Of a stretch of DNA of 64,000 nt, positions 7,316 through 58,603 are shown one piece after another. This DNA comes from Psilocybe cubensis (Eukaryota). The notes below the pieces were generated by a model. That model was not told where the DNA came from and made no database searches. It saw only the letters and a list, made by a program, of their open reading frames with translations. Made by a program: the position numbers and the translations under genes. The stretch is taken from NCBI GenBank assembly GCA_017499595.2, contig CM039001.1, positions 124,001 through 188,000 of the forward strand. The letters are read 5' to 3'. How positions within the stretch are numbered: position 1 is the first letter of the stretch; the number at the start of each line of letters is the position of its first letter.

Positions 7316-7501
7316 TATAAATAGATTGAGAGTTATATGTCAATATCCACTATTGAATCCATTATTTGGACTCTGTGTTGTGTTTGTTAACATTGACATT
7401 AGTATTGTTGTTATTCCACTTATTCTATTCCATCTAATTCCATATCATAAAATCCCATAACTCAATTGACATTTACGCTATAGTCCATATTGTTTTGTAA
7501 A

Positions 7502-7572
7502 GTCTTATGGTCTACTGGTTAAGGACAGTCTATTTTTGGCTAAGGTTGACGGTTCAATCCTTGAGCAGGCCA
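7502..7572 (+). pseudogene. Second degenerate tRNA-like sequence inside the TIR element
   Basis: TGGTCTACTGGTTAAGGAC (D-arm/A box) and GGTTCAATCC (B box), ending GGCCA. Confidence 0.5.
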
Positions 7573-8740
7573 TTTATTTCGCTCGCAGACTACAAAGTCT
7601 ATAAGTATATTGTAAGTACTACTGTATGTTGCATGGGCCTTGATTATATAGTTTCCATAAATTACTGTATATTGTGAATACAATGTATTAAACCTATGTA
7701 ATGAAAATATATTAGATAATGATGTTATGTAAGGCTACTAAGTGCAAAAAAGGCTACTGGAAAGTGTGGTTACTACGGTGTCTACTATAATATAGGTGTG
7801 TACTACTGAAAAAAACCTTTTCCGCTGATGTGTACTCTCTTCAGTGTGCATTTATTCAAACATTGTACACTATAACCAACTGCCTTTATCTATCAACTTT
7901 CAGTTATCTTTCTTTTAGTCAATTCAATTGTCAGCAACAAGGCTCGAGAATTGCCCTGGACAATGATGAATCTTGTTTCTCTATTCTGTTTGCTCATTGT
8001 TCCCTAGTGGGGTCCGTCATTGACTCTATCGTATCCGAACTCTTCGATACACAAAACAGGGTTTGTGGTCTACCTCTTAGTCTAAAAAACTGCAAAACAA
8101 AAACGGTACTTATTAATGTACAGATTATGCAGCATAAAATTGAGAATCGAACATAAATCTCTCATGCTAAAATATAACTTCCATTGGTGATGTTGTGCAA
8201 ATTAATCATGCTGCATTCATCCTATCATAAAAATGGCAGAAAACCATCCCTAGTCGGTGAGTATGCTAGTTTCCCATTTAAACAATCACTGTTGCTAGAC
8301 TAGGTTATCTTTTACTTTCTAGAACAACGTATTAGCGAACTGAGAGCAATGGGAAGGGGAAGGGGAAGGAACCCTCTCTTCACCATTCCGATCTGAACGA
8401 CAATAGAGTGTTGGGCAACAACACTGTTCCCATCACGGTCCTGATCCAGGTAAATTGACGCCGACTAGATCGTTGACAGAACCTTGCTAATAGTGTGCGG
8501 TTTGACAGTAAGCCATATGAAATTCCCATGCACGTCCAAAACAGAACTTGTTCATATCCAGCGTGTATCTCCAGCAGCTTTACGCCATCAATCTCCCATA
8601 AAATTCGCTTTATATATTAGGTACTTTGCAAAATACAACATACAGCTAGGGACCGCACAACCCATCCCACCATCCCACCTCACGCATAAATCATCAAACA
8701 ACAATTCAGATCGTCTCTCCACCCAATATATATGCTCATT

Positions 8741-9337
8741 ATGCTATCTTCCACCCTATATTTCCACCACATTGTGTGTTTAATTGTATTCGCACTCGCA
8801 CTACTCCACGGCACCCGTCCCGTTTATGCAGCTTTCTTGTTACACCGTCGCACCAAATCCGTGCTTGAAGATGCCAAATCCGAGGCCAATGATAATGACG
8901 ACCCCCCTTTTCCGTGCAAGCCTCCCTGTAGGCCTCCTTTCGCCAATGCTGCTGGTGAGCACGTCATCGAAGACCTTGGGGAGGTGGTGACCCCTATCCT
9001 CGGGAGCGTGTTGACAGATCCCCTGCTAGGAGAACGCTCAAACACAGATGCACTCCCAGACTTATTATTTTCGTCTCGCAACAACAACAGTCAATACACC
9101 GATGTATACTTGGAGAGAGAGGTGAATGACCTGGAGGCGGACGTGCCAGTGGAAAATTTAGATATGGAAGAGCTAACGGATGGCCTGGAGCCGGCGGCTA
9201 ACCTGGAGCCGGAGAAGCCAATGAACGGGCACCAGGAGAAGTGCGTGTCAATGACGAGGTCGCGTAAATGCTATTCTTGCGCACCACACATGAATGGCGT
9301 CCGGTGCATTATTGTTCCTAGGTCTCCAATCGTTTAG
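8741..9337 (+). CDS. Secreted protein, family B copy 2
   Basis: Signal peptide ALALLHGTRPVYA; PCKPPC motif; RSNTDALPD shared with the 13224 gene. Confidence 0.7.
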   Translation: MLSSTLYFHHIVCLIVFALALLHGTRPVYAAFLLHRRTKSVLEDAKSEANDNDDPPFPCKPPCRPPFANAAGEHVIEDLGEVVTPILGSVLTDPLLGERSNTDALPDLLFSSRNNNSQYTDVYLEREVNDLEADVPVENLDMEELTDGLEPAANLEPEKPMNGHQEKCVSMTRSRKCYSCAPHMNGVRCIIVPRSPIV

Positions 9338-9935
9338 CTCGTTTATCGTTTACAAATTGTGTATTCCATTTACCGTTTACCTATCCCTCTTTTTTTAATC
9401 TCACAATACCAGTATACTCAAAACAGGCAACGAACTCACCACTGACACCCTGACCCGCCACGGACCCAAAGTCACAGACGCACCGTAACCCCCTCATGTA
9501 ATTCCACCTCCGGATTCATTTGCCTTCACAGTATGTTACGGGGTACCGAGATGAGATAAACGCCCAACTACTATGTCCCCCAACGCATTCCAGTCGCTTG
9601 ATGGGAGATAATCGTGACACGGGGAGCTTGGGGCGGGAGTCACGATCAGTATCAGCGACGACGTATTGGCATTCTGCAAAGCTCGATTCGATAAAACACG
9701 TGACGAAGCGATCTCCGCTCTAATTCTGCACGGCACAGACCGTTGGCGCCGTGCGCGCTGCTCTTTCTTGGCTTTTGATTTGAAAAATCTCTAGTGAATT
9801 GTCCGTTTTCTTCAATCTGTCTACAGGAAAATTCATGTCGATATTTCCCTATACTCATGGATTTTGCTTCGAATTCATAACTGTCTGGCTCCAACCTATC
9901 AATGTGCTTCCACTTCCGAGAACCGCCACATTGTT

Positions 9936-9983
9936 CATCTGCAGAAAAAGAAAAAATTCAGTAGTGCTATGGTTGTATAATAG
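9936..9983 (+). mobile_element. Solo 48-bp left terminus of the 6821-7830 element
   Basis: Exact match to 6821-6868. Confidence 0.8.
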
Positions 9984-10012
9984 ACCAGTATCATCGCCGA
10001 GTACATAACATT

Positions 10013-10408
10013 ATGTGGCTTTCCTCCACCTCGTTCCCCCATATCGCGGTTTTAATTGCGTTTGCGCTCACACTCTGCCGCAGCACCCACCAAGTCTCCG
10101 CAACCGCACTGCCACACCATCGCCAAACCGCTGCGGACGCGAAAGGCAATTCCAAGGCCAATAGAAATCCAAACATGCCCGCCCCCCCCTGCAAGCCTCC
10201 GTGCATACCTCCCCTTGTTGGCAGCATTCTGGATTCCATCGACAGCCCCATCGTAGCGGTGATATCCAACCCTTCCATAATCAATGTCGAGAAGGGTGTA
10301 GATGGAGTTGGACGTTTAGCCTCTCTAATTCTAAATTCCCGTGCAATAGCTGGTGAAGACAATCACGATGAGAACAATCATAATGTGGACGTTCCCAGAT
10401 GGGTTTGA
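10013..10408 (+). CDS. Secreted protein, family B copy 3
   Basis: Signal peptide LIAFALTLCRSTHQVSATALP; PPCKPPC motif. Confidence 0.7.
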   Translation: MWLSSTSFPHIAVLIAFALTLCRSTHQVSATALPHHRQTAADAKGNSKANRNPNMPAPPCKPPCIPPLVGSILDSIDSPIVAVISNPSIINVEKGVDGVGRLASLILNSRAIAGEDNHDENNHNVDVPRWV

Positions 10409-10552
10409 TGGGTATAATGAGTCATTGACAATAGTTCAATATTGTAATTTTTAACTAGCATTTATTGACAAAGGGTATTAAATGATGTCTTTTAAAAGCG
10501 ATCTCCCACGGTAAGAAATATAGTGACGTTGATTCTACTATCACAAAAAATG

Positions 10553-10670
10553 AGAAGAAAACTAGCTATAAGAAAAATCATTGAAGTCAAGCAAAGACGT
10601 ATCATGATGGTACAGGTAGTTATGGGAAGTATAGGCAGTGGTATGTACATGATCAGCAATCTTGTTGCTG
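10553..10670. repeat. ~120-bp dispersed direct repeat, copy 2
   Basis: Matches 5368-5486. Confidence 0.85.
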
Positions 10671-11345
10671 TTGTTGATGATTGTGTAGGTTTATTAATAG
10701 TGTGGCATTACAACGTTGGTTAAGCGCCCGCGGATTTGCACTTTCATTCATCCAATGTCCTCGCCTGTATCTCCTGTTCTCCTGTTTAGTATTCATTATT
10801 CTTAGTGATTGATTTTGCGTTTTTATTCAGTTGTTTTTGTTTTAGTAGGTTCATATTTTACCTGCAATGCTTGAAAAGTGCCTTCTAAAATAATGAATTT
10901 TGCTTCTCTACACCTCTTGTTTATCAGTTCCAAGACTTGGTGGAGTTGCATTAAAAACTGACCAATTCTGGTATTGGTGAGGGTAATTCTAAATTCAAGC
11001 CTTCATCACCGAAACACAAATATCTCTACCAACACAGTGGCGAGGAGACAACTGAACTCGAGGATCAACCTTTTGAACAGCGCTAACCAAAACCAGAACC
11101 GAGTAAATGAACCTAACAATATAAATGGGTACCTACTAAATAATTGACAGAACCTTGATAACGGTGTTTCTCTTAACGATATGGCATAACATTCCCAAGC
11201 GTATCTGAGAGATAAATTTTGTTCCTATTTGGAAAAAGTACCCCATCGATATCCTATAGCATTCCCTTTATATGAACGGATTATCGATTTATCTCTCAAT
11301 CTTACATTTGATATCATATCATCACCCAATACATCCTCATTAACT

Positions 11346-12167
11346 ATGTTACTTTTTATCCCGTCCTTCAGCCGGCTCGCACTTTCAATTGTACTCGCAC
11401 TTGCACTTTTCCACGGCACCCAACCAGTCTCTGCAACTACCCTGCCAAAACGTCGTGAGATTGACAAGGAGACGGACGCCAACTCCAGTGACAAGTCCAA
11501 GGAGGACCCAGCGCGCGCAGACCCAGCTATTCCCATCAGTCTTGGGGCCTTAGTGACTTCTTCTCCTGCTCTCAGCAACGTAATATCAAATCCCCTGAGT
11601 ACCAACTCGCACACAGATGTAATCCCATGCATACTGTCTCTAGCTGTATCTTCCCGTGCAGTTGCTGATATGGGAGGCAATGGTAAAGATGTGCAGTCCT
11701 GTGGCCCTTCTTCCGACTCCTCCACCGATTCCTCGTCTTCCGCGTCATCATCTTCCTCGTCTTCCTCGTCATCATCTTCCTCGTCTTCGTCCAGCGATCA
11801 AGATTCTTCATCCGCCTCCTCCAGCGACTCTGACTCCTCGTCCTCTTCCTCTTCCTCCAGCGACTCATCGTCTTCGTCATCGTCATCGTCTTCTTCATAC
11901 AGCGACTCTGACTCCTCGTCCTCCAGCGACTCATCGTCTTCGTCTTCGTCCTCGTCCTCGTCTTCCTCATCCAGCGACTCCTCGTCCTCGTCCTCTTCCT
12001 CAAGTGACTCCTCATCCTCATCTGCCTCCAGAAAATCCTCGCTCATATTAAGCAAGCGATTCCAACCCCGACAACGAAGACGTACACTCGTACGACGTAG
12101 AGGGATACCACAAGTTTTCGACGGGAAGATATCTCCTTCAGTTGCCATGAATCTTGTAGGTTCTTAA
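11346..12167 (+). CDS. Secreted Ser/Asp-rich protein, family B copy 4
   Basis: ATG at 11346 aligns with paralogues; LALALFHGTQPVSATTLPKRR; ~100-aa poly-Ser/Asp tract built from TCCAGCGACTC-anchored repeats. Confidence 0.7.
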   Translation: MLLFIPSFSRLALSIVLALALFHGTQPVSATTLPKRREIDKETDANSSDKSKEDPARADPAIPISLGALVTSSPALSNVISNPLSTNSHTDVIPCILSLAVSSRAVADMGGNGKDVQSCGPSSDSSTDSSSSASSSSSSSSSSSSSSSSSDQDSSSASSSDSDSSSSSSSSSDSSSSSSSSSSSYSDSDSSSSSDSSSSSSSSSSSSSSSDSSSSSSSSSDSSSSSASRKSSLILSKRFQPRQRRRTLVRRRGIPQVFDGKISPSVAMNLVGS

Positions 12168-13223
12168 TTACAAGGCATTGAAACATATTTTGTTTGTTCC
12201 CCGGAGCGCGCCTGTTGTGGTTTAGTCAAACGCTTACCTACTATAACCAGCTGGCGTTAGCTATTTATTTTCTGTTCACTTTTTTATTGCTTAGTTAGTT
12301 CAGCTTCGATCTTTATAGGTTAAAAATTCAGCAGAATATCTACAAATCCTGTTCCTTTATGCACTTTTTTAAATTCTGGGTCTCGCTATTAGCCAACAAT
12401 AAGACAGCAAAAATGATTTTGCCATGAAATTAGCAGTGAAATCAGCAGATATGTTCAATGTATTGAATCACTGTCCGATGATTTTACATCCTAGAGTATC
12501 ACTAGTCTTTATTGGCAGACACTATTAATTGATACCTTGCTTATAGATTCGCAGATCTGTAGTATCAAAATGAGGACATGGATATCCCAGGCTAACATAT
12601 AGATTTTACAGGTCATATTGTCCAAATAGCGCTTGCATCATCCCGCTGGCCCACATACGCTTGTCCATCAAGCATTCATTCTATCAAGAAAAGAGAAGAA
12701 TAATTTATTCATAGTAACTCTACTGTGTAATCGGTGAGTATGTTGGCTTTCCATTCATGCCTTCACCGCTGCGGCACTAAAATGTCTGCTAGAATGATGG
12801 TTAGCTTCACCTTCCCACCTCCTCACAGAGTAAATTGAGAGCGGCAGGAATGGAGCCCACCTTTACCTAACCGCGCGAGCCGAAAACTTACCGTCAAGTA
12901 ACAAAACCCTTTTCACAGCACGGAGTAAAAAAAGGTTAATGGTTATTGTCAGAATCTTGCTAATATCGTGCTTATTGACAGTAGGCCGTATAACATTCCC
13001 AAGCACGTCCGAAACAGAGCTTGTTCATATCCGGCTTGTATCTCAAGCAGCTCTGCGCCACCAATGTCCTATAAAACTCACTTCATATACCAGGTACTTT
13101 GCAAAGTACAGCATACATCGAGTGTGCGAGCAGCTCTGCACAGCTCAGCCCACATTTCCACTGCACGCGTAAATCGTCAGACAACAATTCAGCTCATCTT
13201 ACTACCCAAAACACGCGTGCATT

Positions 13224-13778
13224 ATGTTGTATTCCACCTTATCTTTCCACCGCCTCACGCTTTTAATTGCTTTCGCGCTCGCACTATACCACGGCACCCG
13301 CCCCGTCTCTGCAACTGTACTGCCAGAATATCTCACCCACCGTGACGTAGTCGAGGACGCTAAATCAAAGGCCAAGGTGGATTTAGAGCCCGTAGATCCG
13401 AACGAACTTCCCCTTATTGATGCAACTGAAGACCAAGAAATATCCCATTTGATGAACAAAGTCATCGGGTCTGTGTTGATGAATGACCCCTTCGGAAAAC
13501 GCTCGAACACAGATGCACTCCCAGACATCTCATTTCCGTCTCGTGAAAACGATGATACAGACGCCGATGTGTATTTGAAGAGCCTGAGGGAAGTGGACGA
13601 CCTGCATGAGAAGAAGGCAATGAACGACGTGGAAGAGGAGGATCCAATGGAAAATGATGACGGGGATGCAGACATCACCGTGGCTGCTCGCGTGCTTGCA
13701 TTACTGCGTGCGCTATTCTCGGCTCTAGATGTTCAGAAGAGTTCCGGTGGAGAACGAAATCGGAGTCTGATTGTCTGA
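13224..13778 (+). CDS. Secreted acidic protein, family B copy 5
   Basis: Signal peptide LIAFALALYHGTRPVSATVLP; close paralogue of the 8741 gene, including upstream DNA. Confidence 0.72.
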   Translation: MLYSTLSFHRLTLLIAFALALYHGTRPVSATVLPEYLTHRDVVEDAKSKAKVDLEPVDPNELPLIDATEDQEISHLMNKVIGSVLMNDPFGKRSNTDALPDISFPSRENDDTDADVYLKSLREVDDLHEKKAMNDVEEEDPMENDDGDADITVAARVLALLRALFSALDVQKSSGGERNRSLIV

Positions 13779-45283: not shown

Positions 45284-47174
45284 TCATGATTCTTCCTTCG
45301 CCGGTTGCTTCTCGCCTTTGACATCATTAGGGTCCGCCAGTGTAACCTCAGACGTCCCTTCGAGCTCGATTGTCGACGTCGATCCGGGAATTTCAAGTGG
45401 CTCCGCGACGACCCCTCGACCCAGTATCCCTCCCCCATCACCAGTACTGTCACCAGCCTCACCACCCACTGCACGTCTAGCAGCCTCCTTGTTTGTGATC
45501 TTGACAGTCACGTCCCTGTCCCCAAAGACCTCACCCAGCTGCTCGAGGGTCTTCCCTGCCGTCTCCCTATATACGAGCCAAACAAAAATGCCAGAGATCG
45601 CAGAGAAGCCTAGCAACAGGAAATAGTACCCGGCCTTGAGCGTCGCGAAGAGCGGTGGAGTGATGAAAGCCACGACAAAGTTTGATATCCAGTTGACACC
45701 TGTGGATAGAGCCATGCCCTTTGCACGGGCGCGCAGGGGGAATACTTCGGCGCCCAGAAGCCATGGTACAGGACCCCACCTAGAAAAGATGATGAGTATG
45801 ATGAGTCAATAAGGTTAAGAGACAATGAGCGCTACATACGTAGCACCGAATATAAACAAATATATGCAAACACCTATGTTGAGATGAGGAATGATAAATC
45901 TCCAGGGCAAACGATACTGCAATGTGTGGACTCACCGGCAAAAATACCATCTGCAGTGCTTATTCGTGCGTTGCCTAGAGGTAGAGTTTCAACATAGAAC
46001 TGAAGACCACCGATAAGCGCCAAAGATCCGACGAGACCAGCGCTTCCAAACAGCAAGAATGATTTACGACCCCAGGTGTCGACAAAGAACATTGTTGGAA
46101 TAGTGCCAGCACAGTAGACAAGCGCGCACGCGCCAGAATAGAGTAACGACTGTCCGATATCGAAGCCTGCTCGTGTAAGATTTTCAGGAAGGAAATACAG
46201 GATAGCGTTGATCCCATTGAACTGCGCGAACAGCTGGCAGGTGATGCCTACAATTGTTCGTCGGGTGTATTGGGTGAAAAGCTGTCCCCAAGTAGCCTGG
46301 CCCATAGAATCCTCGAGAAGAATAGCTCCTTCAATGGCTGCATAGGATTCTCCTACTAGAGGATCGTACAAGTCGCCATTAGCATGTAGATCGGCAATGG
46401 CGGCGAAGCCTTCCTTTTTGAAGTCATTTTTGATGAGCCAACGCGGGGATTCCGGGAGAAAGAACGTCCAGATTACGAGTATCACTGCCAGGATGGCTTG
46501 TATGATGTATGGGCCCCTCCACGATAGCTCTGAGGGCATGTCAAAAAAGAAACCATAGCCAACCCATGCGGAAAGAGCATAGCCCGAGTTTAGACAAAAA
46601 TATTCAATGGACACGAACAGCCCTCGCCCATGGCCTGGTGCAATTTCACACTGATAGATTGGGACTGTCATTGACAGCATTCCAACCCCAAGACCTTGGA
46701 TGCAACGCCCGACTATTAGAGTGGCAAGATTCGGCATGAATATCTGTATGATGGAAGCAATAAGGTATATGATGCCCCCTATACGAATCGACATGCGTCG
46801 GCCGAGTATGTCACAAATATAGGCTGCTGCAAGCGATGCAACAAGCGCAGTCAAGTTGAGGCATGCAACCACAATGGCTAAAAAAGTTTGATCAAGGTTC
46901 AGCATAAGGAGATGCCCAACGGAAAGGGGTGGCACACACCTTGCACGAACTCATCAACTCCTTCTACTCCGGCTTGAACCTGTTCAAGCGTGACATCCTT
47001 TCCATACATACGCCGAATAAACGATGGCTGCACTTGCGCTGCAGCTATGATGCCTTGACTGTATCCAAACATGGCATCGCCCAAAGAAGCCAGTGCAGAA
47101 GAGGAGTAAAGCAACCTTTTTCCGACCATCCATCTAGGATATCGTACGGTGTATGAGCTCCGCTGTAGTGTCAT
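45284..47174 (-). CDS. MFS sugar porter family transporter
   Basis: MFGYSQG, DILGRR, PIYQCEIAP...RG, LPESPRWL, QFNGINAILY, DTWGRK, ETAGKTLE. Confidence 0.92.
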
Positions 47175-47522: not shown

Positions 47523-49930
47523 ATGCCCTCAGACGAACTCGAGGAAATCAGTGGCATCAAGCCTAAAGTATGGCTACCTGACGGCCAAGAACGCGAAGTT
47601 AGCTCACAGTCCAGGTGGGTTGCGCTTTATTATAAGGAACTTCGCATTCATTAGGAAGAACCCACGTCCTGAGTTCGACACTTCCCGGATTCAAATGAAT
47701 GACGCGTCGCTTGATTTGTTGATTGGACCCATAATGCTGACATGATTTTTACTACGTTTTCAGCAATTCAGTGTACAAGGTCAAACGAACGTTTGACCAC
47801 TACTACTGGTAAGTGTATACATTTTCTATATCACTCGCAAATTGTTATTGACGCCTCTTATCCACAATTTCGGAACTGCGCAGTACATGCCCGGTAAGAC
47901 TTACCCGCCTTATCACATCCGATTCCATTATCGTGACTCACATACTCTGTCAATTCTTCTCTAGGCGTGGCGAAATCAGGTAAGACAAGCCACCTTCTCT
48001 CCGGGTTCTGCCCGTAGCGAGAAGGCGGTTCTCAGAGTGTTTTCATTAAATTCCATCAACAGGGCGGTTCACCAGTAAATGCTCGCACATGCAAGCATCT
48101 CCGAGCCCTACTTGGTGATGACTATGAGCTTGCTCGCGTCAAAATGAAGAATCCAGATGGTCCCCAACCAAAGCACACTACCAAACGTCAAATAAAATCT
48201 ACATCGAAATCTAATCCAACCGCAACCACATCTTCAACGGCCAGCTCTAAGCGCAAGACGCGTGCTGCTGACGACGATGAAGGACTTCAAGCGGACGAGG
48301 AAGATGACAAACCTCCAACAAAACGATCGAAAGTCGCTCCTTCATCATCGAAAGGCAAAGGAAAGAAAACTAATGCAGACGATGACGCCGAAGACGCCGA
48401 GGATCAAGCAGATGATGACGAGAATGAAAATGCGCCGGTTGGGAAGGCTGTCCCAGAGCTTTTGCTCGCAAACAAGTGGGACCTTGAAAAAGGTCTTGAC
48501 CCGACAGGTTGGTGGCTGTCCGAGAAGCTCGACGGTGTTAGGTGCGTCGTACAGATCAGCAATTACATCAATCGAGACACATCATGGCTCACGACATATC
48601 ACAAAGAACGTTTTATGACGGCAATCAACTTATCAGTCGACTTGGTAACCCATTTACTCCACCAAATTGGTTCCTCGACAGTAAGTTATGTCCTCGACAT
48701 TCTTATGCGGCACAACTGATGACAGATCAATAAACGCGCCTTAACAGAGCTCCCCAAGGGCGTTACACTCGATGGCGAACTTTACGGGGGTCGAGGCAAC
48801 TTCCAGTCGACCGTGTCAATCGTAAAGACTGTCAACTCTGTTCATTGGAAAAACATCAGCTTCCAAGTGTGTCACATTAATCTACTTCCTGAAATAATTA
48901 ACGCTACGATTTGTTGTCCCTTCGCTCATTGTCTACATGTTTCATGTCACTTCTTTTTTATTCTCAATCTTGTTACCATGATACTGATTGGTTGTCCAAT
49001 AAATCATCTAGATATTTGATGTACCTTCGCGAGGGCATGAGCCATTCGAAGAGCGGTACAAGTTCTTACAAGAGACATTCGGCGTTGGCGGAGTACATGC
49101 AGCTGACCAGATCTGTGTGGTCGAGCACGAGCTGGCAAAAAGTCGGCAGCACGTCCTTGACAAGCTGAAGGAAGTTGAAGGGTTAGGGGGTGAAGGACTC
49201 ATGCTTCGCAAACCTCAATCGTGAGTACGCGTTCACGGTCGTCAATGCCTTGCGTGTTTCATAGTTCAAACTATAGCGTTTATGAAGGAAAGCGCTCGGG
49301 AAGTCTCCTCAAAATCAAGACTTTCTACGATGCGGAAGCCATAGTCACTGGTCATGCACCTGGAAAAGGTCGTAACAAAGGAATCACCGGAGCACTTATG
49401 TGCAAGATGGAGTCCGGAAAAGTACGTCTATGTTCCCTGTTTCTACCTCCAAGCCCCATCATGATACAGATCATCAATATCACTCCGACTATCCCCTTTG
49501 CTCTTATCTTCCCTTCGTCGCCCCCTTCGGAATTTGCTTTGTCTTGTCCCTTCATTTCGATAATAATAGTATTTACGCTGATTAATACGTCTTATTATGC
49601 TTAGCTCTTCAACGTGGGCTCCGGTCTTACAGATAAAATTCGGAAAGAGCCACCCAAAATCGGTTCAATTATTACCTATCGCTTCCAAGAGTTGACAAGA
49701 GACGGTGTTCCTCGGTATGTACTCTTTCTTAGTCCACTTTCATGACTCTTCATCTATTTTGCGTCTCTACTTTGTCTTTTGTTATTGCACCCGTAAACTC
49801 GCTGCTAACACTGTTCCGATTGCAATATAGCTTCCCGTCTTACATCGGGCTTGCTGTCGACAAAGATAGACCCAAAGATGCTGAAATTCCCGAGCATCGC
49901 AAGGCTGGAGCTGCGGGCGGAAGTGCATGA
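47523..49930 (+). CDS. SWIM zinc finger + minimal ATP-dependent DNA ligase (adenylation + OB domains)
   Basis: Spliced N-terminus ...YKVKRTFDHYYCTCPAWRNQ...RTCKHL; acidic/basic linker; ligase motifs SEKLDGVR, LDGEL, FQIFD, EGLMLR, LLKIK; OB domain FNVGSGLTD...TYRFQELTRDGVPRFP. Confidence 0.87.
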
Positions 49931-51906
49931 GCGCTATCCGCAATGCATGCTCCTTCACACGCGTCCAGGTACCGTCTAACCATAATCAGGTTACTTCCGA
50001 CCCTTGGACCAGAAAATACGAGTAAACTCGTATAAGTGTAGGTATTTTTTCATTCTTCGTGTAGTGTTTCGGTATTTTCCTTGCTTGCTCGGATTTATGG
50101 ACGTGCCCCATGGGACAAGGTTCGAGCATACTACTATACGTATCTAAAGAGGTGTTTTATTACTTTAGTCCTTTTTATGCTGTCAGCTTCCATTCAACTT
50201 AGTAAGAGTCGGTATTCCAGAGTCGGGTCAAGCAAGCAGCGTCGTGTCACTCTGGATATTTCCGATTTCTATTTTCTCTCATTCCCTTGATCTACAATGG
50301 TGCTGTTATAATTGAACATTGTTTCAATGCTTTTTAGGACATTTTTTGGTATTCAATTGCTTCTATCATTTCGTTGTCATAATTTAACGCGAGACATCGG
50401 TCCCCAAAGATAGATGGCAAACCACGGTAAGCATGGGCTATGCAACATCTTTTCCACCCATTGACCTATTTACGACGTCTTTTCAATTCCATGTTTCAAC
50501 ATATCATGGCAATGATATTCAACATACCTCTGCGGGAAATTAAATAGAATTCACGGCGTACCGTTTCCTGATCGAACCCAAGCCTTGCCAGACATCTTAA
50601 CAGACGTCGAGATTCCGTATAACAATGCCATGACACGCAATACGAATTAAATAAGCACCTCAAATGTAATGTACTTTATACTGCTATGTAGATACACTCC
50701 TCTGCAGTACTATTGTAGCGACCGAGATTGTCGATTTTCCTGCACTGTTTGAAGTTTTGGTCCAGTCTGGAATGTTGCACTCACTGGCCAGGTGTTCAAA
50801 GTCGAACCAATATTCGTTCTTCAATAATTGGATTGTTTTTCGTGCAGCGCTTTCACATTTCTGAAGCGCATGATACATCTCGGGGATGTTGTCGTTCCTG
50901 TGTGTGTCATGGCGTCGGTCGGGTTGGAGTGCCCCTATCCGCCACTATAAATCATGGCACGGCAAAGGAATGGCCGGTTACCCGGAAGATATTTGAGCGC
51001 CGCTTCAATCATGAATGGGAGACATCGGACCACAATGCACATCAGCTTCGTTCCTACCACCACCACATCGTTGAAGGCCATGTCTAACTTCCGGCCATTT
51101 CTGTATTCTGCAAAACCTATATATATATCTGGCTGCATATCATTCTACTCAACACGTGCATTGAGGGGTTGCCCTTTGGTCCAACTGTGCTCAGCTTCTT
51201 ATTAAAATTTGGTCAAGATCTGTTCCACGTAACGACACTAGCACTGGCCTACATTTGCACCACCTCTCCGACGACTAGCCTTGGATATCTACGAGTCTTC
51301 TCTTTTCTGCTCTACATCAAACATTGCACTTCTAAGGGCCATGTCGACTCTTGGGCTCTGGCAGTTAGTCGTGTTCAGCTCTACTGTGCAATAAGGTTCG
51401 CACTGTTCAATAGTCACCTCTCAAAGTGGAATTGGTGTCATACCTTCACTTGGATAGACGGAATCCGCAGTTTCTTTGGAGATTTTCTATCTATTGTACT
51501 CCTTGTATTCGACGCTATTGGTGCATCAGCGTTCATACATGTGGCAAACCCTCTTCTGGCCGATTTCTACCGACATCAATTCCGTGAATACGGTTGATGT
51601 GCGCAGTCCTCTCCATAGGACAAATTAATCGCTAACTCTTTGAGTGCTAATGATTTGTCACTTTGTATCTCTTCTCTGCATTCTAAACTTCTAGCAACAT
51701 TACAGGAATGACGAACTTGCAGTTGTCACTTCTCTCGACTCGCATATCTTTGTCATCACTCATATAGTCCCCCAACTCGTCATCGATGCTCGGTTTATGA
51801 TTTTGGTTATGCAGTGGAGTCTTTTGATATATAAGTTTGAGGACTCTTGCCAGATTGTTCACCAAAACGCCCACACTACTGAGAAACTCAAATCATTGCC
51901 CAAATT

Positions 51907-52899
51907 ATGTTGAGCTCCATTATTTTCTCTTCTCTTATCATCGCGCGCTGTAGTGCACTTCCTCAATATGGCAATACAAACTCTGGGAACGCTGCCGACA
52001 ATACAGGGGACTCAGTCGACGATACGGTCAATGGCTATCAAAGCCCACCTATCTGGAACTGGCCTGCCTTATTTGCCGCTGAAACAACCGCGGGAGGCGC
52101 CAATGTCGCCGCAGATACCAGTGGCAGCGCCAATAATCTCGGTTCGGGTCCGAGTGGGGTCATCTATCGTCCCATCTCACAAGCTTCCTCTGACGGCCCA
52201 GTAGCGGCAAATAGTATCCAAGCAGATGCCTCGTCATCCAGTGGATCTCAGTGTCTGTCCAGTCGCGAGCCTCAATTCGGGAATGGCGTCAATGGATTGT
52301 TCGACTGTGCAAACGGAGGCGACAATAGCGGCAACGGCTATGGCGGATCGAGCAACGGCAACGAGAATGAAGGTAGCGGGACCGCGCCCGTTAATCAATC
52401 GTCATCCGACACCACTATCGCTGGCAACGAGCCAGTTGACGACACCAATGCAGCTAGCAGCACTACTACTAGCAGCACAAGCTCCCCAAGCAACATCAGA
52501 AACCCACCGTTTGAGCCAGTAGGCACCGTGAGTGGAGCTGGTGGAAGCACCGATACGAGTAACCCCCCATTTGAGCCAGTAGACACAGAAAATGGTTCTA
52601 GCGGAGTCAGCAGTGATTCCAGCGAAACTGAGAATCCACCTAACGAGAACATCGGAACCAACAACAATTCTACTTCGACTCAAGGCGGTGGTGGTACCCA
52701 GGACTCCACTAACTATAACGATGGCGGGTGTGTCCTTGGTCGAGAACCTCAGATCGGAAATGGTGTTAGTGGCCAAACTGGATGCGGAAATGGCGGCAAT
52801 GATAGCGGCAATGGCAGTGGGGGTTCTGACAGCGGGAATGGAAACAATGCTGGGGATTCCGGAGATTCTGAACAGGATGATGTAGTATCCGTTGAATAA
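51907..52899 (+). CDS. Secreted Gly/Asn/Ser-rich protein with two Cys-bracketed REPQ(F/I)GNG modules
   Basis: Signal peptide ...RCSA-LPQYGN; modules CLSSREPQFGNGVNGLFDC... and CVLGREPQIGNGVSGQTGC...; NPPFEPV repeats. Confidence 0.82.
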   Translation: MLSSIIFSSLIIARCSALPQYGNTNSGNAADNTGDSVDDTVNGYQSPPIWNWPALFAAETTAGGANVAADTSGSANNLGSGPSGVIYRPISQASSDGPVAANSIQADASSSSGSQCLSSREPQFGNGVNGLFDCANGGDNSGNGYGGSSNGNENEGSGTAPVNQSSSDTTIAGNEPVDDTNAASSTTTSSTSSPSNIRNPPFEPVGTVSGAGGSTDTSNPPFEPVDTENGSSGVSSDSSETENPPNENIGTNNNSTSTQGGGGTQDSTNYNDGGCVLGREPQIGNGVSGQTGCGNGGNDSGNGSGGSDSGNGNNAGDSGDSEQDDVVSVE

Positions 52900-53438
52900 G
52901 CGTCAGCGGTCGGGGTTCAGGGATGGGTCTGAATAGTTGATGATATGTTACTGAAGGAAAATAAGAAAACATACAAATGAACAAACTTATAAGTGTGATG
53001 ACCACCAGTAATTCGAGCGTGGCCTGATATTAATCATCATAATACTGGCTCAGAAAAATGAAATCAACGGGTACAAGTCATTTAGTTGTGACCTCGATAA
53101 ATCATCAATATAGGCATCTTTACTGTACTCTCCCCACTTGAGAGTATACTCATATAGATCGCGAATTGTAAGGTACAAATCTAGTTTAGTCCACCGTATC
53201 CACACAAGCTCATTGACAGGTTCTTTTTATTTCTATGAAGTAATTCAATGTTCTTCATGCCAGACCATTTTGATTGAATTTAAGCATACATAATGCTGAA
53301 CACATATTGTTTATCGAATTTTCATATTCTTACCAGGTAAAAGAAACAGAGAGTAGACGAAAAAGCATTTTTTTATATATTTGATAGAACCTCTTGATTA
53401 TCATACAGTTTTCCAACGTTCAATGTTCATTCCCATTA

Positions 53439-54137
53439 TCAGTCGTAGTACCCCCCGTTCCCGTTTCCGTTGTTGGATCCTCCATATCCGTTACCACTGA
53501 AGCTACCTCCATTTCCAGAGTTTGTGTTTCCGTTATTCGCATTTCCAAACTGACGACGATAGTGGTAGCCCCCGTTGTTGTTCCCGTTGTAGGATCCTCC
53601 CGAACCGTTACCGCTGTAGCTGCCTCCATTGCCGGAGTTCGTGTTTCCGTTATTGGCATTGCCAAACTGTGGCTCCGGGGCAGCCTCGCGGCGGTCGTAG
53701 TAGCCCCCATTGTAGTTCCCGTTGTAGGATCCTCCATAACCGTTGCCGCTGCCGCTACCTCCATTACCTGAGTTAGTGTTGCCATTGTTGGCGTTCCCGA
53801 ACTGGGGCTCTGGCTCGCGTCGGTACCAGTATCCTCCGTTGTTGTTGCCATTGTTGCTACCGCCTACGCCATTGCCGCTGTTGCTCCCACCATTTCCTGA
53901 GTTCGTGTTCCCGTTGTTTCCGTTTCCGAACTGGGGTTCAGGTAAAGCTTCGCGTCTGTAATAATAACCACCATTGCTGTTGCCATTGTTTGACCCGCCT
54001 ATGCCGTTGCCGCTGTTGCTGCCTCCATTTCCAGAATTAGTGTTTCCGTTGTTGTTGTTTCCAAATTGCGGGAGGGCAAGCGCCTGTGCAATGAAGGCGG
54101 TGACAAGGAGAGTCTTTAGAGTTGACGAGGGGAACAT
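53439..54137 (-). CDS. KEX2-processed repeat protein (KEP): five 37-aa cores
   Basis: Signal peptide; cores QFGNxNNGNTNSGNGGSxSGNGxGGSxNGNxNGGYx(Y/D) separated by RR plus X-A/X-P dipeptides; probable 5'-UTR intron 54144-54196. Confidence 0.9.
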   Translation of the reverse strand: MFPSSTLKTLLVTAFIAQALALPQFGNNNNGNTNSGNGGSNSGNGIGGSNNGNSNGGYYYRREALPEPQFGNGNNGNTNSGNGGSNSGNGVGGSNNGNNNGGYWYRREPEPQFGNANNGNTNSGNGGSGSGNGYGGSYNGNYNGGYYDRREAAPEPQFGNANNGNTNSGNGGSYSGNGSGGSYNGNNNGGYHYRRQFGNANNGNTNSGNGGSFSGNGYGGSNNGNGNGGYYD

Positions 54138-55373
54138 TTTCGACTAGCATCCAAGATCAAAATTTAGACAGCAAATGAACGATGAAATTTACATACCTAT
54201 TGATTGAATAAAACTTGCAATATCTTCAGGGAGGTCAGCACCGTTGCCTATTTGAAATATAACTTTAGAAAAGCAATTCCTACCAAATTTTGGTCTGGCG
54301 CTTCGGATATACTTTCGAATGACGAAGTGAAAGCAGTATAACCTCCATTATATACACCGAAGATGCGCAGTCAAGAAGCTCATAGTCTCTTGCTGGTGAA
54401 GGTATAGATTCTATTTTTTCACTTAGTACATGAACTAATGACTGACGAAAATTGCATGCTATGAGCAAGAAGAAGGTAATAGTTCAGGTTTCACTTCGTA
54501 GATGCACATTTGTGAATATTTCGATCACAAACCTCCCTAAATCGCACTTTCACAAGTGCCATATCCGCATATGTCATTAGAAAATGTGCTTCCAGAATGT
54601 GTTAGTACCAAACTGTCGAATCATATACGTTTAATGGTACGGAATGGGGCACGGAAAGACCCACAGCACTACGCCGCGAGAACACTTGCGCCGTATTAAT
54701 GTCGCCTTTGTGGAGAATGTTGAACTGTAGTGCTTCTAGACAGTAATACAGAAATACCACCCACATTTATTCTGGAGTAACGGAGAGGACTGTCCCCATT
54801 TTACCAGACTTACCGAAGCTCTGTGTGTTGAAGGTTGATCACGATCGCAGGTGCTGTGAGGACTAGTCTGCAACATGATTGTTATTCGGTTCAATAGACG
54901 CCCAGGGCCATGCCTGCCCAACGCGCTCAATAATCTTTAATTTTAACGGCTTTAAACTCGTACTAACCCCTGACAAGGTTGACTTAATGAGTTCACGAGG
55001 CTTCTGCCGATCATCCGTCATACAATCGGCTTGGAAGTCGAAAAGCCCGAATGTCAACTACAGGGATCTCTGCGTCTATTTGAATCCAGAATTGTGCGTA
55101 GTGCATCTCATTGAACTATGATAGTATACTTCTTTGCTAGCTATCTACCTTTAATGTGGCAAAGATACTAGTATTTACATTGACCTAATCGATACGAGTA
55201 CAGAATTCATACGACTTTGAGCCTGAACTACTTTCTTCCGAGAGCTTCCGAGCTCCCTGTCTCGTATACGCTAACTGCGAGAGGTAAGGCTCCATGTGAA
55301 TGTGATGAGAAATACATTTTGAATCATATCGAATCTCTTCCATATTCAAATTTGCTGGCCGAGCGATCTGTTA

Positions 55374-56654
55374 TCAGACGGAGTAGTCATTTTCACCCAA
55401 GGGTTTATTGATGATTGGAAGTGAATTTGAGTTTGAAATTCGAAGGGTGACACATTCGACGGAGATCATAGTCTTCATTGCCATTTCCAAATCGCTGAAA
55501 AGGATGTTGTATGATTGTAGACTGAAAGAATGCAATTTGCATTTGGATTCGACAATAAACCTGGAAATTTCCTGCCCCGGCGCACATTTAAGATCGTGTG
55601 CTTCTTTCCATGTAATTTCGAGCATTTGGAGTCGTGGAGTTGCGATGTATTTCAAAAATAATGTGGGACATTCCTTGCCGTTCAAAGAGAACTCACGCAG
55701 TTTTGGAAGAACCAAACGGTACCCCACTGGGACCGGCGGACATCGAATGGGCACGGCACTCTTATGAAGCTTCAAGGTACAGACCTCAAGAAATAATGCA
55801 GCTGCGAGAATGTCCAAGTAATCTGACGCCTCAGAGTAAAGACCGTCAAGATCCAAATGCGTGAGACGAAACCAGTCAACGAGAATTCCTCCTGGGTAGC
55901 TGTTGTGGATTCTATCCTCCACATGTATTGTAAGTCGCGTCAAGCTAACCAACGCGCGGATGTCGAGCCCACACAATCGAAGCTCCTCTTGCCCCTGCTT
56001 GGAGCAAATCACAATCTCCTCCAGACTGGAGAGGTCTCTCCGACGTGACTTGTGCATGAGAAGAAAAATAGCAGAAGGTCCGGATGCAAGAGATCTCCAA
56101 TATTGGTGATTTCCCAGCTGGTTCAGAACACGGTTTGATTTGTTGTAGAAAATGCCACCATCAAAGTTATAATCGATGGTAACATCCATTGGAAGTGGCC
56201 TAGCGCGCTCGAAGTGATGTGCCACCAAAGGTAAGTCGTTGATCTGAATACTATCGAGTGAGACGTCATAACATAGGTTAATCTGGATGTCGTTCCAATG
56301 ATGAATGAAGTACGAAGCAACCATATTCCAGTTCCAGCATACAAGCATATAGGTGCACAACTCTTGATGGTTGTAGGCGTTATAGCGAATAATTTTTTCC
56401 AATAGTTTGTCCGAGAGCCTTCTGACCGGGGATATGACGGAGGCATACTTTCGTCGTATTTCCAGTATATGCTCTCTCTCTGTTAAAATCTGGCGTTTCT
56501 CTGCCTGGGTCCTGTACTTTAGCGTGTGATGCAGCTTTGCAAGGTCATCGTCAAGACTTTTAACTGTAGAAAGAATGTGGGGAATGACCGAGGGATGTGG
56601 AGCGATGTTAGATATTAACAGGGTGGGAATGTCCCTTGGATAGAAATTCGGCAT
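55374..56654 (-). CDS. F-box-like / RNI-like LRR protein (intronless)
   Basis: 426-aa ORF; coiled-coil then SPVRRLSDKLLEKI...LVCWNWN (F-box-like) and LTHLDL/LREFSL/LQMLEI repeats. Confidence 0.7.
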   Translation of the reverse strand: MPNFYPRDIPTLLISNIAPHPSVIPHILSTVKSLDDDLAKLHHTLKYRTQAEKRQILTEREHILEIRRKYASVISPVRRLSDKLLEKIIRYNAYNHQELCTYMLVCWNWNMVASYFIHHWNDIQINLCYDVSLDSIQINDLPLVAHHFERARPLPMDVTIDYNFDGGIFYNKSNRVLNQLGNHQYWRSLASGPSAIFLLMHKSRRRDLSSLEEIVICSKQGQEELRLCGLDIRALVSLTRLTIHVEDRIHNSYPGGILVDWFRLTHLDLDGLYSEASDYLDILAAALFLEVCTLKLHKSAVPIRCPPVPVGYRLVLPKLREFSLNGKECPTLFLKYIATPRLQMLEITWKEAHDLKCAPGQEISRFIVESKCKLHSFSLQSYNILFSDLEMAMKTMISVECVTLRISNSNSLPIINKPLGENDYSV

Positions 56655-57105
56655 ATCTGACAGCGTGTTTAGGCAACTTTAAGTACCTGGGCAGGGGTGA
56701 AAGTACATGAGGATGTATGAACTGTGTGTGTGGCTGATGTTATAGATGTTTTGTTTGGTCGTCCATGTCACGCGATTGGCAAGGCCACTACCCAACGTTT
56801 CATTGTTGAACGGATTGGTGATTTGACCCAGAGGCCCGAGTTCCATCAACTTCCAAATGCGTTGAAGAATTTTCTGTGCCACGTAGAGTGAAATGCAGCC
56901 ATCTTTCTTTCTTACTCACGAGAAACGGGACGATCTTTCCTGATCTTTCACTCTACAAAATATCGTGAATTGGATTGAGGCTGAAGCTGAAGCTGAAGTG
57001 GTGCTTTCAAGTCAGTTTCAATGCGACTAACAACACATTTGCATTTCCTCTACATACGAGTTTAGCATTCAGGTTACTATGGGCACTTGGAGGCACGTAC
57101 ACAGT

Positions 57106-57576
57106 TTACTGTCTTTTACCCTTTCCCTTGGGTATACGGTCAAGCCCAACATCTGAGAGGAAGCATATCCTCATTGTAGCGCCAGCGTACACAAATCCTA
57201 CACTTCCCCACATCATAGCATTCCATTCCCAGAATTTCCAAAAGACCGCCATTCCCGCCGGTGCCATTGTTATCAAATGTCCAAAATCAGCTACGAGTAA
57301 CCCTATCAAGAGTTTCTTCCAAGTCACGATGGATGTCGTTGATGAGAGAACAAAGTGTTCGTTTAGAGCAAAAAGCAGGTAGAGGTTGGCCAGCTGGAGG
57401 AGTGCCATGTTCGTTTGTGTGGGAAGTACAGTGTGTGTGAGCTGAGAACTAAAAGTGAGGTCCTTGAGGTAATCATCTTGCCTGAATGCGGCGTAGAAGG
57501 CCCCTGCCAGTGCAGATATGGGCTCAATGTATAGGAAGAAGGCCCTGTAGAGGAAGGGTACTGATGGCGGAGTCAT
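57106..57576 (-). CDS. Small multi-pass membrane protein, conserved fungal type, function unknown
   Basis: 156-aa ORF with about four hydrophobic segments; FFLYIEP, QLANLYLLFALNE, LLVADFGHL. Confidence 0.75.
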   Translation of the reverse strand: MTPPSVPFLYRAFFLYIEPISALAGAFYAAFRQDDYLKDLTFSSQLTHTVLPTQTNMALLQLANLYLLFALNEHFVLSSTTSIVTWKKLLIGLLVADFGHLITMAPAGMAVFWKFWEWNAMMWGSVGFVYAGATMRICFLSDVGLDRIPKGKGKRQ

Positions 57577-57847
57577 GGTAGGATGGAAGTGAGAAAGCTT
57601 CCGCAGTCAAGGTTGTATTCGGTGTTTAAATCCATTATTAGAGCATATCGTTAGGCAAGCCATCGTTGAACCTTTTTCGACTTAGTTGATCGTGAGACAA
57701 CTTTGGAACATAGAAATACAATTCAGTTTAATACGGTGTTAATACATTTCATGATTTGACTCTTATTACTCCTCATTTGGTTTGCATGACTATGTTACAA
57801 TGTTTGCAATCGAATGTCGAGCCTTCAATGATCCTTTGCTACAATCT

Positions 57848-58603
57848 TTAAAATGCGTTACGTTCCCATTCCTTAAAATCTTGCTTTGCTTGTCGATCTG
57901 CAAATCCTCGATCTATACATTGATGTATCAGCACATCACAGCTGCCAGTAATAATGAGTTGGGAAATGGAGAAGAAACGTACCTTGATTTCCAAATGATT
58001 GGCGGGCATCTTGGGCAGCGCCAGTTGATCCTTGATTAAGGCCCATATATCCGGCGCCTCCACCAGTAGCTGCAAGACCTTCTACCATCCCTTCTCCAGC
58101 CGATCCATGTCCTACTCCATGATGGCCTCCAAGGCCGCCAGTGTGGGTCGTATCATAAGGACCCGAACCCGTTCCAGCAGAAGCATGTGTTCCCGGGATG
58201 TTGCTCACGCCAGTGTTCCGATTCTCATACTGGCCCAGGTCGTTTCCAGAGAAGGGTCCTGCACCGCTGCCATGCCCGCGGAAGCCTTCGTTTCCGGTGG
58301 TTCCAAACTGTAAAACCATCCTCGTTAGCCAGAACAACACACATGTTTGTGATGTCACCCATACATTGTTCCCTTGCCCTTTAGTTTCTTTCGCATCTCG
58401 CACTTCGGCATTGCCGAGTTGATGCTCTTCTCGTCCACTCTGCTTCATATTGGCACTCTTAATGGCACCTCCGACTGTCTCTTTAATTGCGCCTTTCATA
58501 GAGTGCATTTGACCAGAGGTCTTGCTGTATAGTTTACATTCAGCGTACTGGTAAGCAAAGAATCATAAATCACGAACCTTGGGGAAGTATTTGAAGATGA
58601 CAT
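57848..58603 (-). CDS. CsbD/Hmp1-like stress protein with Gly-rich tail (3 introns)
   Basis: MSSSNTSP|SKTSGQMHSMKGAIKETVG...SGREEHQLGNAE resembles fungal Hmp1/CsbD-like proteins; last exon ...KEWERNAF*. Confidence 0.7.

What the first reader, a model, noticed from the sequence alone, without database searches (positions are those of the whole stretch)
51907..54137. Convergent two-gene system: a releasable-peptide precursor plus a partner carrying the same core bracketed by cysteines
Seen: the + strand protein has two modules that align gap-free with the 37-aa core of the neighbouring KEP (QFGNGVNGLFDCANGGDNSGNGYGGSSNGNENEG vs QFGNGNNGNTNSGNGGSNSGNGVGGSNNGNNNGG). In both modules the dibasic RR is reduced to a single R (SSR-EP-Q, LGR-EP-Q) and core Ser12 is replaced by Cys. 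A second Cys sits four residues before the R. The Tyr-rich end and downstream RR are lost. These four are the only Cys in the mature protein. Inference: a disulfide would keep the core attached to a Ser/Thr-rich, probably glycosylated scaffold even if it is cut. That suggests a subunit plus nucleator/anchor arrangement, by analogy with curli CsgA/CsgB. I know of no described fungal system of this form.
Basis: partly seen in the sequence, partly recalled or inferred. Interest (0 to 1): 0.8.

Follow-up and report, generated by a model that had tools for sequence, protein, structure and literature searches.

The report
Peptide precursor plus disulfide-stapled paralog
A mushroom gene that is probably cut into five small glycine/asparagine-rich secreted peptides faces an old sister gene whose copies of the same peptide carry a conserved cysteine pair across the cutting site, so they probably stay attached after cutting; whether the two products work together is untested.

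Summary
The minus gene (53439-54137) is a KEP-type precursor with five 37-aa Gly/Asn cores. The plus gene (51907-52899) has two cores (23/34 and 20/34 identical) bracketed by Cys116/134 and Cys275/293. Both are intronless and are covered by separate contigs of one spliced RNA run. The Cys pair, 18 residues apart, is kept in 5 of 5 Cys modules from three species (this genome, Psilocybe cyanescens, Galerina marginata).

Three corrections. (1) The upstream Cys replaces the invariant first Tyr of the KEP tail, so the partner is a remodelled KEP paralog. (2) The junction is probably still cut: Galerina keeps RR inside the Cys bracket, 7 of 7 single-Arg junctions have an aliphatic P4, and the Glu/Ala-Pro-Gln trimming signal is kept. 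(3) There is no GPI or membrane anchor.

Linkage recurs only indirectly: an antisense partner-type module inside a P. cyanescens KEP gene model, and accession proximity in Galerina. Best reading: a cut-but-stapled, acidic, multivalent form of the peptide acting as accessory subunit of the same secreted material (0.35). Amyloid, binding and nucleation are not shown. New variant of KEPs.

The parts
51907..52899 (+). Partner gene P0001, 330 aa, single exon; secreted, acidic, Ser/Thr/Gly/Asn-rich paralog of the KEP
   Evidence: unspliced contig 51964-52968 in RNA run X10; ortholog P0003 at 52%
51907..51963 (+). Presumed signal peptide plus Leu-Pro dipeptide before Gln20 (Cys15 lies here)
   Evidence: sequence; [A/P]LP-Q start in 7 of 7 family proteins; no signal predictor run
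51964..52065 (+). Unit-1 head: shortened core start QYGNTNSGN..., conserved 27/36 with P. cyanescens
52252..52272 (+). Junction 1: Cys116 (P5, KEP Tyr position), LSSR (LxxR), Glu-Pro
52273..52374 (+). Core module 1 (Q123-G156) with Cys134 at core position 12 (52306-52308)
   Evidence: 23/34 to KEP core 2; 32/42 to P0003
52375..52728 (+). Acidic Ser/Thr/Pro spacer with NPP(FE) motifs and sequons; poorly conserved (33/119)
52729..52749 (+). Junction 2: Cys275 (P5), VLGR, Glu-Pro
52750..52851 (+). Core module 2 (Q282-A315) with Cys293 at core position 12 (52783-52785)
   Evidence: 20/34 to KEP core 2; 28/40 to P0003
52900..53438 (.). 539-bp gap between the convergent stop codons
53439..54137 (-). 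KEP precursor gene P0002, 232 aa, single exon, five cores, four RR sites followed by EALPEP, EPEP, EAAPEP or nothing
   Evidence: contig 53450-54132 in X10
53958..54068 (-). KEP core 1 (37 aa, ends YYY)
53823..53933 (-). KEP core 2 (ends YWY)
53694..53804 (-). KEP core 3 (ends YYD)
53559..53669 (-). KEP core 4 (ends YHY)
53442..53552 (-). KEP core 5 (ends YYD, then stop)
51828..51833 (+). TATA-like box 79 bases before the partner ATG
   Evidence: consensus match only
54349..54354 (-). TATA-like box 217 bases before the KEP ATG
   Evidence: consensus match only

Best explanation
The two genes are old paralogs with divided roles. The minus gene is cut by Kex2 at RR, trimmed by Kex1 and Ste13, and releases five nearly uncharged 37-aa peptides that start with pyroglutamate, are 62-70% Gly+Asn and end in aromatic residues; these most likely self-associate into an extracellular fibrous or film-like material, as Rep1 peptides do. 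The plus gene is a remodelled three-unit precursor. Its junctions ([L/V]xxR, then Glu-Pro-Gln) are probably still cut and trimmed, exposing the same pyroglutamate-F/I-G-N start, but a disulfide between the P5 Cys and core Cys12 keeps the pieces together. The product is a three-chain, strongly acidic, glycosylated molecule showing two cores and one core head. It acts as a minor accessory subunit (cross-linker, cap or solubiliser) of the peptide material, not as a wall anchor. Shown: anatomy, homology, conservation of Cys and junction, transcription in one run. Inferred: secretion and KEP cutting (about 0.9), disulfide within each module (0.8), cutting of partner junctions (0.6), self-assembly of the peptides (0.5), physical co-assembly (0.35).
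For: Selection on the cores: KEP cores share 29-31 of 34 residues while 33-63% of the shared residues use different codons. Partner identity to P. cyanescens is 32/42 and 28/40 in the modules against 19/59 and 33/119 in the spacers. Cys pair 18 apart in 5 of 5 Cys modules; P0006 lacks both; 0 of 10 KEP-type cores has either. Galerina P0005 has C-V-T-R-R-E-P-Q, a canonical site inside the bracket. All 7 single-Arg junctions have L, V or M at P4, against 1 of 6 RR junctions (read; not independent events, perhaps two or three). LxxR is a described Kex2 motif (PMC8528282; bioRxiv 2020.05.27.120113). Cleavage after single Arg, Ste13 trimming and pyroglutamate were seen for Coprinopsis KEPs in Pichia (PMC9769878). 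Ten of 32 core positions are invariant over all 16 cores, mostly Gly/Asn. Both genes have their own contig in RNA run X10. A partner-type module lies antisense to the KEP ortholog in a P. cyanescens gene model (24/35; 1 of 116275 shuffles). Predicted pieces carry net charges -6, -17, -8; the free peptides 0 or -1.
Against: No experiment shows cleavage, disulfide, fibres or binding. AlphaFold gave no confident fold (pLDDT 49.5 and 40.4). Adjacency of paralogs follows from duplication alone. The second KEP of this genome (P0004) has no partner nearby. The intact P. cyanescens partner has no KEP with a neighbouring accession among the 19 listed for that species, and the linked pair there looks decayed and lacks the P5 Cys. 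Galerina P0006 lost both Cys. The yeast pattern cited wants Lys/Arg at P2 as well as aliphatic P4, so Ser/Gly at P2 may be cut slowly, and a disulfide loop may hinder Kex2. Shared upstream words are not above background (fraction 0.06-0.17). Co-expression rests on one run that was found through this stretch. KEP knockouts in Coprinopsis had no phenotype.
Confidence: 0.35

Rival explanations
1. Independent paralog. An inverted duplication before the Psilocybe-Galerina split made a neighbour that now works alone as a secreted acidic glycoprotein with a disulfide-closed loop; linkage is historical.
For: Partner cores form their own group across species (95/94). P0004 is unpartnered. No KEP accession next to P0003. 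No significant shared promoter words.
Against: The partner keeps the core in exact register, the Glu-Pro-Gln signal and 10 invariant core positions. Linkage recurs in two other species. Both genes appear in the same RNA run.
Confidence: 0.25
2. Signalling. The peptides are pheromone-like ligands for a receptor; the partner is a tethered, long-lived or decoy form that shows the same pyroglutamate N-terminus.
For: Ste13 signatures as in alpha-pheromone precursors, described in basidiomycete KEPs (PMC6339444). The N-terminal half is kept and the C-terminal tail dropped in the partner.
Against: 37-aa low-complexity cores are long for a pheromone (my knowledge). No receptor-like gene was recognised among the flanking ORFs examined (ligase, F-box-like, DUF7704, sugar transporter, CsbD-like).
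Confidence: 0.17
3. First reader's model. The partner stays largely uncut, is held on the wall, and nucleates fibres of the released peptide as CsgB does for CsgA.
For: Single Arg with Ser/Gly at P2 in 4 of 4 Psilocybe partner junctions; adjacent paralogs sharing a repeat; three diagnostic substitutions (positions 6, 9, 12) that could rigidify the core.
Against: No GPI-like or membrane segment. RR kept inside the bracket in Galerina. Aliphatic P4 and Glu-Pro kept. No Pfam or PDB match to curli. Strong negative charge suits a cap or solubiliser better than a seed (inference).
Confidence: 0.1
4. Defence. The Gly-rich peptides act against bacteria, fungi or grazers, and the acidic partner binds them to protect the producer or to store them.
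For: Narrow range (Psilocybe, Galerina) and gene turnover are typical of interaction genes. PMC9769878 proposes roles in biotic interaction. Kex2-cut, disulfide-linked two-chain products exist in fungi (K1 killer toxin, listing).
Against: The peptides have net charge 0 or -1, unlike most antimicrobial peptides (my knowledge). The cores are conserved, not diversified.
Confidence: 0.1
5. The partner is a decaying copy, or the likeness is an artefact of low complexity.
For: Both proteins are Gly/Asn/Ser-rich. A decayed-looking pair exists in P. cyanescens. An AU test does not reject a same-genome origin of the cores (p 0.078).
Against: Shuffles do not reach the match. Open 330-codon frame, transcribed. 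Ortholog at E 3.7e-48 with all four Cys. The module profile hit only 5 of 1.84 billion proteins, all family members.
Confidence: 0.03

Closest known systems
KEX2-processed repeat proteins (KEPs) of agaricomycetes with STE13 signatures (Le Marquer 2019 PMC6339444; Umemura 2020 PMC7329392; Vogt 2022 PMC9769878)
   Same: Signal peptide, repeated cores, RR sites, X-Ala/X-Pro dipeptides, Gln-start cores that can form pyroglutamate; P0002 fits fully.
   Different: Core sequence matches no Pfam family; a linked paralog with a Cys pair across the processing site was not found in the passages read or in searches.
Ustilago maydis Rep1 repellents, with Hum3 and Rsp1 (PMC4617103, passages)
   Same: Basidiomycete Kex2-cut precursor with 34-55-aa repeats; Rep1 peptides form surface amyloid-like fibrils; Hum3 joins such repeats to a hydrophobin domain.
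   Different: Rep1 repeats are described as amphipathic; these cores are polar Gly/Asn with aromatic ends. Hum3 has a separate folded domain, whereas here the Cys lie in and before the core. No sequence comparison with Rep1 was made.
Fungal amyloid signalling pairs, NWD2/HET-S, PP, sigma (PMC5485727, passages)
   Same: Adjacent fungal genes share a short motif; one product templates the other.
   Different: Those are NLR receptors and HeLo-type effectors without secretion or Kex2 processing; neither domain is present here.
Curli CsgA/CsgB and Fap FapC/FapB (PMC10903470, passages)
   Same: Neighbouring genes for a major subunit and a related minor or nucleating subunit.
   Different: Bacterial, dedicated secretion pore, no proteolytic release of repeats; no homology found.
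Convertase-cut, disulfide-held chains: PMEL (PMC5037717, passages) and yeast K1 killer toxin (abstract start)
   Same: A proprotein convertase cuts, and a disulfide keeps the pieces together; PMEL also has an O-glycosylated acidic Pro/Ser/Thr repeat region and forms functional amyloid.
   Different: No homology. Those are single-gene systems with folded domains; here the staple is built from Tyr-to-Cys and Ser-to-Cys changes in a peptide repeat, beside a gene that releases the free peptide.

Membership tests
KEP (P0002) | N-terminal secretion signal | tested here: inconclusive
   Hydrophobic N-terminus ending AQALA-LPQ seen directly; no predictor available
KEP (P0002) | Repeated cores | tested here: met
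   Five 37-aa cores, 29-31 of 34 identical
KEP (P0002) | Dibasic Kex2 sites between cores | tested here: met
   RR at 4 of 4 junctions
KEP (P0002) | STE13 dipeptides (subtype) | tested here: met
   EA-LP-EP, EP-EP, EA-AP-EP at 3 of 4 junctions; LP after the signal
KEP (P0002) | Peptides detected after processing | not testable with these tools
   needs peptidomics
KEP (P0001 partner) | Dibasic sites between repeats | tested here: not met
   LSSR and VLGR; RR only in the Galerina relative. It descends from a KEP but fails the strict definition
KEP (P0001 partner) | Extended Kex2 motif (aliphatic P4, Arg P1) | tested here: met
   L or V at P4 in 6 of 6 partner-clade junctions, 4 of 6 strict LxxR; cleavage itself untested
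Dikaritin RiPP | DUF3328/UstYa gene near the precursor | tested here: not met
   0 of 21 UstYa matches lie on contig C4 or C7 (counts are lower bounds)
Dikaritin RiPP | Tyr-linked cyclisation of the core | not testable with these tools
   Tyr is present in the tails only; needs mass spectrometry
Curli CsgA/CsgB | Curlin repeat homology | tested here: not met
   no Pfam hit for P0001-P0006; best PDB E 0.22, unrelated
Curli CsgA/CsgB | Neighbouring genes sharing the repeat | tested here: met
   539 bp apart, convergent
Curli CsgA/CsgB | Cross-beta fibre and seeding by the minor subunit | not testable with these tools
   AlphaFold models low in confidence
Curli CsgA/CsgB | Surface attachment of the nucleator | tested here: inconclusive
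   no GPI-like or membrane segment; non-covalent wall binding cannot be excluded
Fungal amyloid signalling pair (NWD2/HET-S type) | NLR and HeLo-type effector domains | tested here: not met
   no Pfam domain in either protein
Fungal amyloid signalling pair (NWD2/HET-S type) | Adjacent genes share a short motif | tested here: met
Rep1 repellents | Kex2-released repeats of 34-55 aa | tested here: met
   37 aa against the range in PMC4617103
Rep1 repellents | Sequence homology and amphipathic, surface-active fibrils | not tested
   Rep1 sequence not compared; composition here is polar

The most novel reading that the evidence does not exclude
A secreted, protease-gated two-gene fibre system in mushrooms: one gene releases free Gly/Asn peptides, and its convergent paralog, by two point changes to Cys (tail Tyr and core Ser12), staples successive units across the cut site and so pre-forms the tail-to-core contact that the free peptides make in the fibre, acting as template or cross-linker.
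Probability: 0.2. Interest if true: 0.8.

Novelty: new variant of a known kind. Interest (0 to 1): 0.5.

Why it matters
Most KEP peptides have no known function, and single knockouts in Coprinopsis gave no phenotype (PMC9769878). A paralog that keeps the core but staples it across the cleavage site gives a structural clue (tail Tyr near core position 12) and a cheap test: synthetic 37-mers plus a 45-residue oxidised module. If they co-assemble, KEPs would include two-component extracellular materials, and genome screens that demand dibasic sites would be missing a class of accessory genes. If not, it remains a small, undescribed KEP family of Psilocybe and Galerina with an unusual Cys-bearing offshoot.

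Tried and rejected
No RNA holder was listed on record; X10 and X15 were judged RNA from spliced joints and empty intergenic bins. X15 (same study as X10) shows only a 174-nt partner piece and no KEP contig; a hole in contigs proves nothing, so it is not used. Contig depths (KEP 358.6, partner 77.7, flanking genes 5-6 in X10) cannot rank genes and are not used. X11 and X12 gave short pieces only and no adjacency in other species. Strain differences in X10: 0 of 7 in the partner ORF fall in the modules, too few to count. AlphaFold of one unit and of P0002 was low in confidence; the repeated strand pattern per unit is a hint only, and no fold search was run on these models. ESM Atlas gave no usable hit (best 0.76). 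Pfam, PDB and Rfam were blank. Word-index protein searches returned only P0001 and P0003 (8000 candidates each, limited to 236-2000 aa). Two metagenome scans confirmed 0 of 97 and 0 of 594 pattern matches. Exact P0002 and P0004 are absent from the protein collection, so the lack of multi-core relatives is weak evidence. Promoter word sharing was not significant. Dikaritin reading rejected. Shifted-frame readings of the P0007 tail rejected (4 other frames at shuffle level). The sequence of Galerina KEP KDR79619.1 could not be seen: Umemura Table S2 has no sequences and the Le Marquer peptide table is not held as text; it may bear on both linkage and novelty. PMC10282164 had 0 hits for KEX2, KEPs, amyloid, Psilocybe in the first 300,000 of 653,132 characters. 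Earlier scan notes had nothing by sequence or words.
Full report
1. Observation. Two intronless frames face each other 539 bp apart. The minus gene (54137-53439, P0002, 232 aa) has a hydrophobic N-terminus and five 37-aa cores, separated by RR and by EALPEP, EPEP, EAAPEP or no linker. The plus gene (51907-52899, P0001, 330 aa) has two modules, at Q123 and Q282, that match KEP core 2 without gaps at 23/34 and 20/34. Shuffles of each module reach at most 17 (0 of 20000 reach the observed value). Cys lie at 116, 134, 275, 293 and at 15 in the presumed signal peptide.

2. The genes are real. Run X10 shows spliced joints in flanking genes and no intergenic cover, so I take it as RNA; it has one unspliced contig over 51964-52968 and another over 53450-54132. 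This is one run, found through this stretch, and contigs give neither level nor strand. The KEP cores share 29-31 of 34 residues, yet 33-63% of the shared residues differ in codon, so the peptide sequence is old and selected.

3. Relatives. A profile of the 7 window modules scored against 1.84 billion representatives gave 5 hits: P0001; P0003 (Psilocybe cyanescens PPQ92562.1); P0005 and P0006 (Galerina marginata KDR79629.1 and KDR79621.1, both with a longest contig of 1,801,584 bases); P0007 (P. cyanescens PPQ92488.1). P0003 is the partner ortholog (E 3.7e-48), with 32/42 and 28/40 identity in the modules, 27/36 in the N-terminal head, and 19/59 and 33/119 in the spacers. All four Cys and both R-E-P-Q junctions are kept. 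This genome has one further family gene, a four-core, Cys-free KEP on contig C7 (P0004), between laccase-like and aldehyde-dehydrogenase-like frames (my reading), with no partner. Earlier unchecked AI notes call this genome Psilocybe cubensis; the hits fit a Psilocybe.

4. What the partner is. The Cys pair is 18 residues apart in 5 of 5 Cys modules. P0006 lacks both Cys, and none of 10 KEP-type cores has either. The upstream Cys is at P5 of the junction, where P0002 has Tyr in 4 of 4 junctions: GG-YYY-RR aligns with GG-CVL-GR. So the Tyr tail was not simply lost; tail Tyr and core Ser12 each became Cys. Galerina P0005 shows the simple state: a short first unit ending C-V-T-R-R, then E-P and a core with Cys12. 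All partner-clade proteins start with a shortened core head. In Psilocybe the units grew acidic Ser/Thr/Pro spacers and a third unit was added. Partner cores group apart from KEP cores (95/94, 15 rows, P0007 left out; 95/95 with it), although an AU test does not reject a same-genome origin (p 0.078), as 34 columns carry little signal.

5. Is the junction cut? Probably. RR persists inside the bracket in Galerina. The Cys-free P0004 has single Arg at 2 of 3 junctions, each followed by EPEPEP. All 7 single-Arg junctions have L, V or M at P4, against 1 of 6 RR junctions (read; related sequences, so only two or three independent events). LxxR is described as an extended Kex2 motif (PMC8528282, passages; bioRxiv 2020.05.27.120113, passages), though the yeast study cited there also wants Lys/Arg at P2. 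Vogt et al. saw products ending at single Arg, Ste13 trimming and pyroglutamate for Coprinopsis KEPs in Pichia (PMC9769878, parts 1-2 of 9 and passages). If cut, each core remains joined to its downstream spacer, and the disulfide holds the upstream piece, giving three linked chains of net charge -6, -17 and -8. No partner-clade protein has a hydrophobic tail or membrane segment (highest 15-residue hydropathy 0.39-0.83), so there is no evident anchor.

6. Linkage. No fungal DNA of other species could be fetched, so the evidence is indirect. P0007 begins as the ortholog of P0002 (57% over residues 1-60). Its tail reads, on the opposite strand and in phase, as a family module: 24 of 35 positions compatible, reached by 1 of 116275 shuffles, with four other frames at shuffle level. 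Positions 6 and 9 are of partner type; Cys is allowed at 12 but not proven, and is excluded at P5. I infer a convergent pair there, joined by a faulty gene model or collapsed, with both halves degenerate. In Galerina, a KEP listed by Umemura (KDR79619.1; Table S2 row) is 2 accessions from P0006 and 10 from P0005; its sequence could not be seen, so it may be unrelated. Against: none of the 19 P. cyanescens KEPs in that table is near PPQ92562, and P0004 is alone.

7. Mechanism. Best (0.35): the free peptides (62-70% Gly+Asn, charge 0 or -1, aromatic ends) self-associate outside the cell, and the cut-but-stapled partner joins as a minor acidic, multivalent subunit that cross-links, caps or solubilises. 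Ten of 32 core positions are invariant across all 16 cores, as a shared packing surface would require, but shared descent also explains this. Rivals: independent paralog (0.25), ligand plus tethered or decoy form (0.17), uncut wall-bound nucleator (0.10), defence peptide plus protector (0.10), decay or artefact (0.03).

8. Comparison. P0002 meets the sequence definition of a KEP with STE13 signatures (PMC6339444, passages; PMC7329392, passages). It is not a dikaritin: 0 of 21 UstYa matches are on its contig. P0001 fails the dibasic criterion but descends from a KEP. Functional analogues are Rep1/Hum3 (PMC4617103, passages), NWD2/HET-S (PMC5485727, passages), CsgA/CsgB and FapC/FapB (PMC10903470, passages), PMEL (PMC5037717, passages) and K1 toxin (abstract start only). 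No homology to any was found in Pfam or PDB.

9. Novelty. Searches for the accessions (0 papers), for KEP paralog pairs with cysteine (0), for Kex2 products that remain disulfide-linked with pyroglutamate (0) and for a secreted fungal nucleator (4 papers, none on such a fungal system by title and abstract start) found no description; one search listed 21 of 22 KEP papers, of which I opened four. The library lacks most subscription journals, and the Le Marquer peptide table could not be read. Verdict: new variant of a known kind, interest 0.5. The boldest reading, a protease-gated two-gene fibre system with a disulfide-stapled template, has probability 0.2 and would deserve 0.8.

Noticed in passing
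G000:C7:626729-627436 (L002:1501-2202): Second KEP of the same family (P0004, 233 aa, four cores with longer Tyr/Pro tails, single Arg at 2 of 3 junctions, no Cys), between laccase-like and aldehyde-dehydrogenase-like frames.
   Followed up: partly
P0007 (P. cyanescens CVT25_010433), residues 63-135: The tail is the antisense reading of a partner-type module; the public gene model probably joins two convergent genes.
   Followed up: yes
window 6001-13778 (+): Cluster of secreted-protein paralogs: three frames (8690, 11190, 13173) share a signal ending LALxHGTxPVxA and an SNxxTD motif, a fourth (6001) is weakly alike; 11190-12167 holds a long poly-Ser tract.
   Followed up: no
window 51599-51781: A 183-nt contig in RNA run X10 upstream of the partner start and of its TATA-like box; could be a longer leader or a separate RNA.
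   Followed up: no
window 57936-58562 (-): CsbD-like start (E 0.005, under the cut-off) with a Gly-rich tail, spliced in X10.
   Followed up: partly
window 48018-49930 (+): Intron-rich gene with a KLDG motif, read from recall as an ATP-dependent DNA ligase; run X15 has an 18-nt in-frame insertion after 48233.
   Followed up: no
window 55374-56678 (-), 57106-57606 (-), 45284-46950 (-): F-box-like frame (E 0.007, under the cut-off), DUF7704 protein (E 2.6e-39) and a sugar transporter (E 3.7e-60) flank the pair.
   Followed up: partly
window 53681 in run X10: A strain difference changes a KEP linker Ala to Ser and keeps the X-Pro dipeptide pattern.
   Followed up: yes
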